Notes under the pieces: generated by a model
The model's input: the letters and a program-made list of their open reading frames with translations, nothing else
What the model was told of the DNA's origin: nothing
Databases searched by the model: none
Made by a program: the position numbers and the translations under genes
Part shown: positions 7,451-7,756 of the stretch, one piece after another
How positions within the stretch are numbered: the first letter of the stretch is position 1
Layout of the letters: the number at the start of each line of letters is the position of its first letter
Assembly: GCF_003018255.1 (NCBI RefSeq)
Contig: NZ_CP027440.1
Length of the DNA: 64,000 nt
Strand: one strand, 5' to 3'
Source: Escherichia coli
GTDB lineage: Bacteria; Pseudomonadota; Gammaproteobacteria; Enterobacterales; Enterobacteriaceae

Positions 7451-7710
7451 AAAAACTCCATTGATATAATATATCCTTTACCATGAATCATCACTTATAT
7501 TAATAAGTGTATTTTTGATCCAAAGGAATAGTACACCAAAGAGACAACTTTATCCAAAAATAATATTAATCACTCAATCTTAAATATAAATTATTATTTA
7601 AATATTATTAAAACAGCAAGAAATCAAGTTTATTATCAGACATTAGCAATAATTCAGAATATATTTATATCAATGGGCATATGAATAATGGAATTATTGA
7701 TATCACTTAT

Positions 7711-7741
7711 AAAAAAGGGCCGCCGGTCGGCAGCCCTTTTC
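7711..7741 (-). terminator. glmS rho-independent terminator (region of the Tn7 attachment site)
   Basis: GC-rich hairpin (GGGCCGCCGG / CGGCAGCCC arms) flanked by A/T runs just 3' of the glmS stop; attTn7 is known to lie about 25 bp downstream of glmS. Confidence 0.7.
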
Positions 7742-7756
7742 TATCAACGAGAGATA

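What the first reader, a model, noticed from the sequence alone, without database searches (positions are those of the whole stretch)
7451..7756. Very AT-rich 306-bp leader upstream of the fimbrial operon with a near-palindrome and a 10-bp direct repeat
The region between the glmS terminator and the pilin start codon is strongly AT-rich. It contains a near-palindrome (CACTTATAT-T-AATAAGTG, about 7491-7508) and two copies of ATCACTTATA (7490-7499 and 7702-7711) roughly 210 bp apart. This is the kind of DNA expected for an H-NS-silenced, possibly phase-variable fimbrial promoter; the direct repeat could instead be an insertion-junction scar or a regulator half-site pair.
Basis: seen in the sequence. 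Interest (0 to 1): 0.4.

Follow-up and report, generated by a model that had tools for sequence, protein, structure and literature searches.

The report
Ordinary fimbrial leader with conserved hairpin
This AT-rich stretch is the regulatory leader of the known E. coli lpfO113 (lpf2/Stg-type) fimbrial operon beside glmS; the 10-bp repeat is a chance match, while the small palindrome is the tip of a conserved hairpin in the predicted mRNA leader.

Summary
The sequence features exist as described; the palindrome is 7492-7509, 1 nt off. The locus is the known lpfO113/lpf2-1 fimbrial operon, on a 5.4-kb island between pstS and glmS, found in about 36% of complete E. coli genomes.

The 10-bp direct repeat is at chance level: 26% of composition-matched shuffles have one. 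Its distal copy lies in the least conserved block and is altered in the dominant allele. It is not an insertion scar.

I found no phase-variation switch. A 12-bp inverted repeat flanks the promoter region, but 0 of 5426 genomes carry the flipped orientation. There is no recombinase gene and no conserved GATC pair.

H-NS silencing is plausible from composition (22% GC) and by analogy. It was not tested, and motif scans gave nothing above chance.

The palindrome is the apex of a nested stem-loop on the lpf-sense strand. Orthologues in seven genera keep a hairpin at that position, with compensatory changes and G·U wobbles. It follows a conserved sigma-70-like promoter (-10 GTAnTAT). I infer a 5'-proximal mRNA hairpin affecting mRNA stability or translation; this is unproven.

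The right end of the region holds an island-borne glmS terminator that contains the attTn7 insertion point.

Overall: ordinary, with low to moderate interest.

The parts
6878..7450 (-). lpfA-O113 (lpf2-1 / Stg-type) major fimbrial subunit gene, first gene of the four-gene lpfABCD operon
   Evidence: ORF of 190 aa. A 100%-identical RefSeq locus is annotated 'long polar fimbria major subunit LpfA-O113'.
7456..7459 (-). Shine-Dalgarno GGAG of lpfA, 5 nt upstream of the ATG
   Evidence: Read directly from the sequence. AATGGAG is invariant in all E. coli alleles and in Pseudocitrobacter, E. ruysiae and Salmonella.
7473..7478 (-). AAGGAU motif (GGA at -26), a possible second CsrA-type site paired with the SD GGA
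   Evidence: A GGA lies between -26 and -35 in 14 of 17 orthologous leaders. The function is inferred only.
7447..7491 (-). 14-codon upstream ORF (MIHGKGYIISMEFL*) whose TGA overlaps the lpfA ATG (ATGA)
   Evidence: Present at -41 in nine of the 17 leaders examined: four of the five O113-type E. coli alleles, L083, both Pseudocitrobacter, E. ruysiae and Enterobacter mori. It is broken in allele AST85 and absent in the O157 lpf2, Salmonella and Klebsiella leaders. The N-terminal half of the peptide is not conserved, so it is probably incidental.
7484..7522 (-). Nested stem-loop on the lpf-sense strand. Outer helix: UGGAUCA (7522-7516) with UGAUUCA (7490-7484). Inner helix: CACUUAU (7509-7503) with AUAAGUG (7498-7492). 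Loop: 7502-7499.
   Evidence: RNAalifold and RNAfold predictions. Fold of -80..-21: z = -2.9 (p 0.007) for the window and mean z -2.6 over 17 orthologues, against -0.33 for the control segment. Outer helix 98.6% paired, with UA->CG compensation and only G·U one-sided changes. Inner helix has 2 compensatory pairs.
7490..7499 (+). Proximal copy of ATCACTTATA; it overlaps the 3' arms of the inner and outer helices
   Evidence: Conserved only in so far as it is part of the stem-loop.
7528..7533 (-). Candidate -10 hexamer TACTAT, inside the conserved GTAnTAT motif. The predicted transcription start is near 7521.
   Evidence: GTAnTAT lies 76-90 nt upstream of the ATG in 14 of 17 orthologous leaders, including distant ones. 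This is an inference; no start-site data were available.
7551..7556 (-). Candidate -35 hexamer TGGATA, with a 17-nt spacer
   Evidence: TTGnnn-like hexamers sit 16-18 nt upstream of GTAnTAT in the orthologues: TTGATA, TTGCCA, TTGAGA, TGGATA. Inference.
7534..7710 (-). AT-rich (~20% GC) region upstream of the candidate promoter; a presumed H-NS target. It contains two further weak sigma-70-like matches.
   Evidence: Composition. Promoter-like matches on the minus strand at 7685->7658 and 7611->7583. No regulator motif was above chance.
7702..7711 (+). Distal copy of ATCACTTATA; it abuts the terminator's U-tract
   Evidence: It is altered in the CT30/FY10, TCM_B2/C10 and AST85 alleles and absent in other genera. 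It lies in the least conserved block, with 72% mean pairwise identity.
7711..7744 (-). Island-borne intrinsic terminator of glmS. The stem GGGCUGCC-GACC-GGCGGCCC is flanked by an A-tract and a U-tract, which makes it look bidirectional.
   Evidence: Fold of -27.3 kcal/mol, z = -5.5, with 0 of 200 shuffles as stable. The sequence differs from the K-12 terminator, because homology to K-12 stops at 7755. O157 lpf2 shares it.
7732..7736 (.). attTn7 insertion point (5-bp target AGCCC), centred 23 nt downstream of the glmS stop codon
   Evidence: In strain mussel_type_A_ST536, a ~28-kb Tn7-like element sits here flanked by duplicated AGCCC. It carries TnsA, a Mu-transposase-like protein (TnsB position), an ATP-binding protein (TnsC position), TnsD and TnsE, plus heat-resistance genes.
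7458..7469 (.). Left arm of a perfect 12-bp inverted repeat (CCATTGATATAA); the partner arm is at 7665-7676. Considered as an invertible switch and rejected.
   Evidence: An inverted repeat of at least 12 nt occurs in 2.4% of shuffles. The distal arm is not conserved. 0 of 5426 genomes carry the inverted orientation.

Best explanation
SHOWN. The interval is the intergenic regulatory region of the lpfO113 (lpf2-1, Stg-type) chaperone-usher fimbrial operon. The operon sits on a 5.4-kb island that replaces 206 bp of the K-12 glmS-pstS spacer. Read in the direction of lpf transcription (minus strand), the interval holds:
1. The glmS stop codon, then a strong island-borne intrinsic terminator. This terminator also contains the attTn7 insertion point.
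2. About 180 nt of ~20% GC DNA.
3. A sigma-70-like promoter conserved across genera: -35 TGGATA (7556-7551) and -10 TACTAT (7533-7528).
5. A conserved AAGGAU...AAUGGAG segment and the lpfA start codon.

SHOWN. The 10-bp direct repeat is a composition-level coincidence, exact only in this minority allele. It has no detectable role. There is no inversion switch.

INFERRED. Transcription starts near 7521, so the stem-loop forms at or within a few nucleotides of the 5' end of a ~71-nt lpfA leader RNA. There it would most likely protect the mRNA from 5'-end-dependent decay, or modulate access to the downstream GGA/SD segment. Either effect would tune production of the major subunit.

INFERRED. The AT-rich DNA upstream is probably bound and silenced by H-NS, like other horizontally acquired fimbrial promoters.
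For: Identity and context:
- ORFs and RefSeq annotation. Island junctions against K-12 at 2328/2329 and 7754/7755.
- The leader is present in 1974 of 5426 complete E. coli genomes. The same operon is described between glmS and pstS in PMC6033998.

Terminator and attTn7:
- Terminator fold of -27.3 kcal/mol, z = -5.5.
- A Tn7-like element with a 5-bp duplication of 7732-7736 in a related strain.

The repeat is chance:
- 26% of shuffles have a direct repeat of at least 10 nt.
- The distal copy is mutated in most alleles and absent in other genera. It lies in the least conserved block.

No switch:
- 0 of 5426 genomes are inverted, against 1900 native.

Promoter:
- GTAnTAT lies 76-90 nt upstream of the ATG in 14 of 17 orthologous leaders, with a TTGnnn-like hexamer 16-18 nt upstream.
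- All the orthologous operons lie directly downstream of glmS.

Stem-loop:
- The -80..-21 segment folds better than shuffles in 17 orthologues. Mean z is -2.6 (window -2.9, p 0.007), against -0.33 for the -140..-81 control.
- On 10 aligned sequences the outer helix is 98.6% paired. It has a UA->CG compensatory change, and all six one-sided changes give G·U on the lpf-sense strand.
- The inner helix has two compensatory pairs. Shuffle control: 2/500 for percentage paired and 6/500 for covariation. Slid registers give 31-44% paired against 91%.
- Pseudocitrobacter sp. (L017) replaces the inner arms with CGGUUA/UGACCG, and E. ruysiae with AAAAC/GUUUU.
- A covariance model built on the element also finds the Salmonella, Klebsiella and Enterobacter leaders, with a hairpin at the same place.
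Against: - No transcription start site, H-NS binding or RNA stability data for this leader could be found or read. The O157 lpf2 regulation paper (Arenas-Hernandez 2014) is not in the library.
- The promoter match is weak: 4/6 plus 4/6, below the threshold of the scan. That scan instead lists two other minus-strand candidates further upstream.
- If transcription starts upstream, the GTAnTAT motif could instead pair with AUAUUAUAUCAA, as RNAalifold proposes.
- Folded together with the SD segment, the window sequence is not unusual (z = -1.0).
- The covariation rests on few and closely related sequences. Two of them (L017, E. ruysiae) keep a hairpin only by shifting register.
- AT-rich DNA readily yields hairpins: 42% of shuffles have a 7-bp stem somewhere in the core.
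- The H-NS consensus is not enriched.
Confidence: 0.6

Rival explanations
1. The palindrome is a DNA operator for a dimeric transcription factor. It would sit just downstream of or over the promoter and repress or activate lpf. The two ATCACTTATA copies would be half-sites that allow DNA looping over ~210 bp.
For: - The inner arms CACTTA/TAAGTG are kept in most E. coli alleles and in P. vendiensis.
- The position, +13 to +30 relative to the predicted start, would suit a repressor.
- The distal 10-mer repeats one arm of the palindrome.
Against: - Where the arms change, they change together or to G·U-compatible bases, rather than keeping one recognition sequence. Examples are CACCTAT/ATAGGTG in CT30/FY10 and CGGTTA/TGACCG in Pseudocitrobacter sp. 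All one-sided changes in the outer helix pair only on the sense strand.
- The distal copy is not conserved.
- No regulator gene lies in the island.
- No known regulator consensus scores above shuffles.
Confidence: 0.1
2. Nothing in the leader beyond the promoter and the SD is functional. On this view the stem-loop is a by-product of AT-rich, palindrome-prone sequence. Its apparent conservation would reflect recent shared ancestry.
For: - On the single sequence the palindrome is at chance level.
- The fold that includes the SD segment gives z = -1.0.
- The effective number of sequences in the model is only 1.8.
- Control (a) of the count of structure pairs can be exceeded by related sequences that have no structure (tool note).
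Against: - Hairpins recur at the same distance from the ATG in leaders whose sequences are no longer alignable: Salmonella, Klebsiella, E. ruysiae and O157 lpf2. The adjacent 60-nt control segment shows no such signal.
- The stem-loop block has only 83% sequence identity among E. coli alleles, yet 91-99% of its pairs are kept.
- The one-sided changes are all G·U.
Confidence: 0.2
3. The leader is a phase-variable switch. It would work either by inversion between the 12-bp inverted repeats at 7458-7469 and 7665-7676 (fimS-like), or by Dam/Lrp methylation patterns (pap-like).
For: - A perfect 12-bp inverted repeat brackets the whole promoter region. That is seen in only 2.4% of shuffles.
- Many chaperone-usher fimbriae are phase variable, as reviewed in PMC7886704.
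Against: - 0 of 5426 complete genomes hold the inverted arrangement, against 1900 with the native one.
- The distal arm is mutated in the CT30/FY10, TCM_B2/C10 and AST85 alleles.
- No recombinase or PapI/PapB-like ORF lies between pstS and glmS.
- There is a single GATC, at 7517, and it is lost in the other alleles.
- There is no long simple-sequence tract.
Confidence: 0.03
4. The two 10-mers are target-site duplications, the scar of an insertion of the ~200-bp segment between them.
For: An exact 10-bp direct repeat with 212-bp spacing, unique in the 64-kb window.
Against: - None of the sampled alleles lacks the intervening segment among the 1974 genomes that carry the leader.
- The copies differ in most alleles.
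- The segment has no terminal inverted repeats of a mobile element.
- The island junctions are at 2328/2329 and 7754/7755.
- Repeats of this length are expected in 26% of shuffles.
Confidence: 0.02

Closest known systems
lpfO113 / lpf2-1 operon of LEE-negative STEC. It is called 'lpfB1' in PMC6033998; from memory, it corresponds to the Stg fimbriae of APEC O78 and to the stg locus of Salmonella.
   Same: - Same chromosomal site (glmS-pstS, the OI-154 position) and the same four genes, lpfABCD.
- DNA 100% identical to RefSeq loci annotated LpfA-O113 (PMC6033998; PMC4636846).
   Different: - Nothing differs at the level of the locus.
- I found no published map of its promoter or 5' UTR.
O157:H7 lpf2 (OI-154) regulatory region
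   Same: - Same position after glmS, with a homologous terminator.
- It shares the proximal block, GTACTAT followed by a hairpin whose left arm is homologous: CUGAUCAAAUAC against UGGAUCAAAAAUAC.
   Different: - Its leader is ~700 nt against ~306 nt here. Most of the sequence is unrelated: alignment score 90 against 73.5 +/- 7 for shuffles.
- Its hairpins are consecutive, not nested.
- It is reported to respond to bile salts, iron and Fur (PMC4288034, citing Arenas-Hernandez 2014). No Fur box above chance is found here.
O157:H7 lpf1 promoter silenced by H-NS and relieved by Ler
   Same: An AT-rich leader of a long-polar-fimbria operon on a horizontally acquired island. This is the model for the H-NS reading (PMC4288034, PMC5357955).
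   Different: - It is a different locus (OI-141).
- Binding was shown there and not here.
- Many lpfO113 carriers lack the LEE, and therefore Ler.
fimS invertible promoter of type 1 fimbriae
   Same: Short inverted repeats bracket a promoter upstream of a major-subunit gene.
   Different: There is no adjacent recombinase. The distal arm is not conserved, and no inverted copy occurs in 5426 genomes.
5'-terminal stabilising stem-loops of enterobacterial mRNAs (ompA 5' UTR type; named from established knowledge)
   Same: A stable hairpin is predicted at or within a few nucleotides of the mRNA 5' end, upstream of an unstructured ribosome-binding region.
   Different: There is no sequence relation and no Rfam match. 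Neither the 5' end nor any effect on half-life has been measured.
attTn7 downstream of glmS
   Same: The insertion point is centred 23 nt after the glmS stop codon. It is used by a Tn7-like element with a 5-bp duplication in a related strain.
   Different: Here the target lies inside an island-borne terminator whose sequence differs from the K-12 one.

Membership tests
lpfO113 / lpf2-type fimbrial island at glmS-pstS | Located between glmS and pstS | tested here: met
   pstS is at 1183-2223, lpfDCBA at 2471-7450 and glmS at 7757-9586, all on the minus strand. The junctions with K-12 are at 2328/2329 and 7754/7755.
lpfO113 / lpf2-type fimbrial island at glmS-pstS | Four genes: major subunit, chaperone, usher, adhesin; LpfA of the O113 type | tested here: met
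   ORFs of 190, 243, 840 and 356 aa. RefSeq annotates lpfA/B/C-O113 under 91-100% identical DNA.
Invertible-promoter phase switch (fimS type) | Inverted repeats flanking the promoter | tested here: inconclusive
   A 12-bp perfect repeat is present in this allele (p about 0.024). Its distal arm is mutated in other alleles.
Invertible-promoter phase switch (fimS type) | Both orientations occur in nature | tested here: not met
   0 of 5426 genomes match the inverted construct over at least 80% of its length. 1900 match the native arrangement.
Invertible-promoter phase switch (fimS type) | Dedicated site-specific recombinase next to the switch | tested here: not met
   Only lpfABCD lie between pstS and glmS.
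Pap-type Dam/Lrp methylation switch | Two GATC sites about 100 bp apart within Lrp sites, plus PapI/PapB-like regulators | tested here: not met
   There is one GATC, at 7517, and it is absent in the other alleles. The best Lrp match, 13/15, is reached by 27% of shuffles. There are no regulator ORFs.
H-NS-silenced xenogeneic promoter | AT content far above the genome average, on horizontally acquired DNA | tested here: met
   22% GC against 51%. The region is part of an island that is absent from K-12.
H-NS-silenced xenogeneic promoter | High-affinity H-NS nucleation motif (TCGATAAATT-like) | tested here: inconclusive
   The best match is 8/10, which 71% of shuffles equal or exceed.
H-NS-silenced xenogeneic promoter | H-NS binding, and derepression in an hns mutant | not testable with these tools
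   No ChIP or mutant data for this leader were found.
Intrinsic (Rho-independent) terminator | GC-rich stem-loop followed by a U-tract | tested here: met
   An 8-bp GC-rich stem, a GACC loop and a U6 tail; -27.3 kcal/mol, z = -5.5. The simple scan missed it.
attTn7 | Tn7-type insertion about 23-25 bp downstream of glmS with a 5-bp duplication | tested here: met
   The element, flanked by AGCCC (= window 7732-7736), carries annotated TnsA, TnsD and TnsE. A Mu-transposase-like protein and an ATP-binding protein lie at the TnsB and TnsC positions.
5'-terminal mRNA stabilising stem-loop | Conserved stem-loop supported by covariation | tested here: met
   The support is moderate because the sequences are few.
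5'-terminal mRNA stabilising stem-loop | Stem begins within a few nucleotides of the transcript's 5' end | not testable with these tools
   The start site is only predicted, from the conserved GTAnTAT motif.
5'-terminal mRNA stabilising stem-loop | Removing the stem shortens the mRNA half-life | not testable with these tools
   This needs an experiment.
CsrA-controlled leader | Two or more GGA motifs, one overlapping the SD | tested here: met
   GGA at -26 and at -9 in the window. A GGA lies between -26 and -35 in 14 of 17 orthologues.
CsrA-controlled leader | CsrA binding and an effect on translation | not testable with these tools
   No data are available.
Any Rfam family | Match at the family's gathering score | tested here: not met
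   The best hits score 17-23 bits against thresholds of 40-75, and all of them lie over the terminator.

The most novel reading that the evidence does not exclude
The conserved leader would be an undescribed post-transcriptional control module. Its parts are the 5'-proximal nested stem-loop, the GGA pair (one GGA in the SD), and the 14-codon upstream ORF ending in ATGA on the lpfA start codon. The module would be shared by lpf2/Stg-type fimbrial operons across Enterobacteriaceae. It would set major-subunit output in response to a global RNA-binding regulator such as CsrA, or to temperature or a small RNA, independently of H-NS silencing.
Probability: 0.15. Interest if true: 0.45.

Novelty: new member of a known kind. 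Interest (0 to 1): 0.2.

Why it matters
The locus itself is well known and common, present in about a third of E. coli, so the main value is negative. The eye-catching repeat is noise, and there is no phase switch here.

The small positive result concerns the control of lpfO113/Stg fimbriae, which has hardly been studied. It gives a concrete promoter prediction and a conserved leader hairpin. Both can be tested directly with 5' RACE and compensatory mutations.

If the hairpin does control mRNA stability or translation, it would add a post-transcriptional layer to the regulation of an adhesin linked to STEC, EAEC and APEC colonisation.

The finding also shows that in lpf-positive strains Tn7-like elements insert inside the island's own glmS terminator. 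Such an insertion separates the lpf promoter region from glmS.

Tried and rejected
1. Invertible switch. I built the sequence with 7458-7676 flipped and searched all complete E. coli genomes. No genome matched it over at least 80% of its length.
2. Insertion scar. The island borders against a K-12-type empty site are not at the 10-mers, and none of the sampled alleles lacks the intervening segment.
3. Regulator motif scans for H-NS, Fur, Lrp, IHF and CRP, judged against 500 dinucleotide shuffles. None was above chance.
4. Rfam at a permissive E-value gave only sub-threshold hits over the terminator.
5. The simple terminator scan returned nothing, but folding shows a strong terminator.
6. The species-representative genome scan with LpfA peptides gave only 2 loci. 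Orthologues were then obtained through the protein search and exact-protein look-ups.
7. The metagenome scan with the degenerate pattern ATYAATGGAGTYNNWATGAA was too permissive. One of these, L083, was a useful new allele.
8. Literature. No transcription start or H-NS data exist for this leader in the searchable library. The O157 lpf2 regulation paper and the lpf1 H-NS/Ler paper could not be opened.
9. Upstream ORF as a coding leader peptide. Its start and frame are kept in nine of the 17 leaders examined, but it is broken in one E. coli allele and its N-terminal half is not conserved. I treat it as unproven.
10. Long-range helix GUACUAU/AUAUUAU and CUCU/GGAG from RNAalifold. Its pairs are almost all invariant, so it is uninformative. 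It competes with the promoter reading of the same motif.
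Full report
**1. What is there**

The window carries pstC, pstS (1183-2223), four fimbrial genes and then glmS (7757-9586), all on the minus strand. The fimbrial genes are a 356-aa adhesin-like subunit (2471-3541), an 840-aa usher (3552-6074), a 243-aa chaperone (6099-6830) and a 190-aa major subunit (6878-7450). glmU and the atp operon follow.

A megablast of 7351-7856 against 5426 complete E. coli genomes finds the whole stretch in 1900 genomes. It is annotated there as lpfA-O113 next to glmS. All other genomes match only from query position 405, that is, from the glmS stop codon onward. 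A more sensitive search with the leader alone finds it in 1974 genomes. Only 4 are at least 99% identical, 217 are at 95-99%, and 1563 are at 80-90%. The window therefore carries a minority allele.

Against a K-12-type empty site, homology runs through pstS and its Pho-box region up to 2328 and resumes at 7755. A 5426-bp island thus replaces 206 bp of the K-12 spacer, including the K-12 glmS terminator. This is the lpfO113 / lpf2-1 operon. PMC6033998 describes the same four-gene operon ("lpfB1") between glmS and pstS at the OI-154 position. PMC4636846 classifies the O104:H4 copy as lpfA2-1, homologous to O113:H21.

**2. The observation**

The interval has 26% GC, or 22% without the terminator, against 51% for the window. 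ATCACTTATA is at 7490-7499 and 7702-7711, and nowhere else in the 64 kb. The palindrome is CACTTAT-ATTA-ATAAGTG at 7492-7509.

Are these features more than composition would give? In 2000 dinucleotide-preserving shuffles of the 262-nt core, 26% contain an exact direct repeat of at least 10 nt. 42% contain a hairpin with a stem of at least 7 bp and a short loop. On the single sequence, neither feature is remarkable.

It brackets the whole promoter region and is rarer: 2.4% of shuffles have an inverted repeat that long.

**3.

*Inversion.* I flipped 7458-7676 in silico and searched all genomes. None matches the flipped construct over at least 80% of its length, against 1900 for the native order. 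The distal arm is also mutated in three allele groups, and no recombinase gene lies in the island.

*Dam/Lrp switch.* There is one GATC, at 7517. It is present only in the window-type allele.

*Insertion scar.* The island junctions are elsewhere. None of the sampled alleles lacks the segment between the 10-mers.

*Half-site pair.* Alignment of nine E. coli leaders shows what happens to the distal 10-mer. It is intact only in the window, RM14516 and AH50/IAI39 types. It becomes ATCACTTATG in CT30/FY10 and GTCAGTTATA in the dominant TCM_B2/C10 type, which also has a 7-bp deletion nearby. It is scrambled in AST85. The block 7666-7710 is the least conserved part of the leader, with 72% mean pairwise identity. 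In other genera the distal copy does not exist. Both copies are exact only in the band of at least 95% identity, about 220 genomes, as judged from representatives.

*Motifs.* The best matches to the H-NS, Fur, Lrp, IHF and CRP consensus sequences are all within what shuffles give.

H-NS silencing remains a reasonable inference. It rests on composition and on what is reported for lpf1 (PMC4288034, PMC5357955) and for chaperone-usher operons in general (PMC6033998). Nothing here tests it.

**4. What the palindrome belongs to**

Orthologous operons lie directly downstream of glmS in these taxa:
- Pseudocitrobacter vendiensis and another Pseudocitrobacter
- Escherichia ruysiae
- Salmonella enterica (two types) and S. 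bongori
- Enterobacter mori
- a Klebsiella sp.
- Kluyvera

A metagenomic contig adds a further E. coli-like allele. Their leaders are all AT-rich, at 21-28% GC.

Two things are conserved beyond the SD region.

*A promoter-like motif.* GTAnTAT lies 76-90 nt upstream of the ATG in 14 of 17 leaders. A TTGnnn-like hexamer lies 16-18 nt further upstream: TTGATA, TTGCCA, TTGAGA, and TGGATA in E. coli. I read this as the sigma-70 promoter. In the window the -35 is TGGATA at 7556-7551, the -10 is TACTAT at 7533-7528, and the start is near 7521. This is an inference. The simple scan instead lists two weaker-context candidates further upstream, at 7685->7658 and 7611->7583. Those are not conserved outside E. 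coli.

- The 60 nt from -80 to -21 fold better than dinucleotide shuffles in every orthologue. Mean z is -2.6. The window gives -2.9 (p 0.007), E. ruysiae -5.5, and Salmonella -2.2 and -3.6. The neighbouring -140..-81 segment averages -0.33.
- On ten aligned sequences the outer helix is 98.6% paired. One pair changes UA->CG in two sequences.
- All six one-sided changes give G·U pairs on the lpf-sense strand: GC->GU three times, and AU->GU, UA->UG and CG->UG once each. On the other strand these would be A·C mismatches.
- The inner helix has two compensatory pairs, among them CACCUAU/AUAGGUG in the CT30/FY10 allele.
- Slid registers pair only 31-44% of cells, against 91% for the proposed structure. 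2 of 500 column shuffles reach the observed pairing, and 6 of 500 reach the covariation score.
- Pseudocitrobacter sp. has replaced the inner arms by CGGUUA/UGACCG in a shifted register. E. ruysiae has AAAAC/GUUUU inside a longer outer helix. O157 lpf2 keeps a homologous left arm in a shorter hairpin, CUGAUC-AAAUACC-GAUCAG, immediately after its GTACTAT.
- A covariance model of the element recovers the Salmonella, Klebsiella and Enterobacter leaders at weak E-values, with a hairpin in the same place.

Changes that keep pairing rather than keeping sequence, together with the strand-specific wobbles, argue for an RNA structure in the lpfA leader and against a protein operator.

The caveats are real:
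- The sequences are few and related; the effective number is 1.8.
- The tool's own notes warn that its shuffle control can be exceeded without any structure.
- Folding the window sequence together with the SD segment gives only z = -1.0.
- Rfam has nothing here.

**5. Mechanism**

*Shown:* the identity of the locus, the terminator, the attTn7 point, the lack of an inversion, the non-conservation of the repeat, and the conservation of a hairpin and of GTAnTAT.

*Inferred:* transcription starts about 7 nt after TACTAT, so the stem-loop begins at or next to the 5' end of a ~71-nt leader. In enterobacteria a 5'-terminal stem-loop hinders 5'-end-dependent decay by RNase E; this is established for the ompA leader, and I cite it from general knowledge. 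The most economical function is therefore stabilisation of the abundant major-subunit message.

An alternative or additional role is to control access to the conserved AAGGAU(N17)AAUGGAG segment. A GGA lies between -26 and -35 in 14 of 17 leaders, alongside the SD GGA. This layout is typical of CsrA targets, and CsrA is known to govern fimbrial expression in Salmonella (PMC7886704, citing Sterzenbach 2013).

A 14-codon upstream ORF starts in the 3' arm of the outer helix and ends in ATGA on the lpfA start codon. It is kept in nine of the 17 leaders but broken in one E. coli allele. Its N-terminal half is not conserved, so I do not rely on it.

**6. The right end of the interval**

Positions 7711-7744 fold into a strong terminator (-27.3 kcal/mol, z = -5.5). 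It is part of the island and differs from the K-12 terminator.

In one strain a ~28-kb Tn7-like element is inserted exactly here, with a 5-bp duplication of AGCCC (7732-7736). The insertion is centred 23 nt after the glmS stop codon. The element carries TnsA, TnsD and TnsE, with a Mu-transposase-like protein and an ATP-binding protein at the TnsB and TnsC positions. It also carries clpK, hsp20-GI, yfdX1/2, hdeD-GI and trx-GI. The attTn7 target therefore lies inside the finding's coordinates. In another strain, IS1 has removed lpfA together with most of the leader.

**7. Verdict**

This is an ordinary regulatory leader of a known, widespread fimbrial island. The direct repeat is noise, and no phase switch is present. 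H-NS control is likely but untested. The palindrome is the visible tip of a conserved leader hairpin that does not appear to have been described. That hairpin is a modest, testable addition, not a new kind of system.

Noticed in passing
window 7732-7736; L146 (NZ_CM174221.1) 338-28290: In E. coli strain mussel_type_A_ST536, a ~28-kb Tn7-like element is inserted in the glmS terminator between glmS and the lpf leader. It is flanked by a 5-bp AGCCC duplication and has ends beginning TGTGGG. It carries TnsA, TnsD and TnsE plus heat-resistance genes (clpK, hsp20-GI, yfdX1/2, hdeD-GI, trx-GI).
   Followed up: yes
window 2328/2329 and 7754/7755: The lpf island (5426 bp) replaces 206 bp of the K-12 glmS-pstS spacer. 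The left junction lies immediately upstream of the pstS Pho-box region. The right junction lies 2 nt before the glmS stop codon, so glmS uses an island-borne terminator in lpf-positive strains.
   Followed up: yes
window 7447-7491 (minus strand): A 14-codon upstream ORF (MIHGKGYIISMEFL*) starts in the 3' arm of the leader hairpin. Its TGA overlaps the lpfA ATG (ATGA). It is kept at -41 in nine of the 17 leaders examined, including E. ruysiae and Enterobacter mori, and is broken by TAG in E. coli allele AST85.
   Followed up: partly
window 7473-7478 and 7456-7459 (minus strand): Two GGA motifs 17 nt apart (AAGGAU and the SD AUGGAG) are conserved in most orthologous leaders. This layout resembles CsrA target sites.
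   Followed up: partly
window 7458-7469 and 7665-7676: A perfect 12-bp inverted repeat brackets the whole promoter region; an inverted repeat that long occurs in 2.4% of shuffles. It is not conserved, and no inverted copy exists in 5426 genomes.
   Followed up: yes
L011 (NZ_CP182182.1) 1748-2445: In E. coli strain EC19 an IS1 element has replaced lpfA, part of lpfB and most of the leader. Only the ~40 nt next to the terminator remain.
   Followed up: partly
L006 (O157:H7) 847-1547: The O157 lpf2 leader is ~700 nt. It shares only the terminator and the proximal GTACTAT-plus-hairpin block with the O113-type leader. Its first hairpin arms (CTGATC/GATCAG) each contain a GATC site.
   Followed up: partly
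L014 (JAIJJM010000969.1): A 1-kb contig binned in a 'Collinsella sp.' MAG carries the E. coli glmS 3' end, the dominant lpf leader allele and lpfA (98% identity). It is almost certainly E. coli contamination of the bin.
   Followed up: no
L007 (NZ_CP132594.1) 1-991: A K-12 laboratory strain has the lambda gam and bet genes and a kil remnant inserted right after glmS. This is an engineered recombineering cassette at attTn7.
   Followed up: no
window 7711-7744: The consensus terminator scan reported no terminator. Folding nevertheless shows a very stable GC-rich hairpin with a U6 tail. The A-tract upstream makes it look bidirectional.
   Followed up: yes
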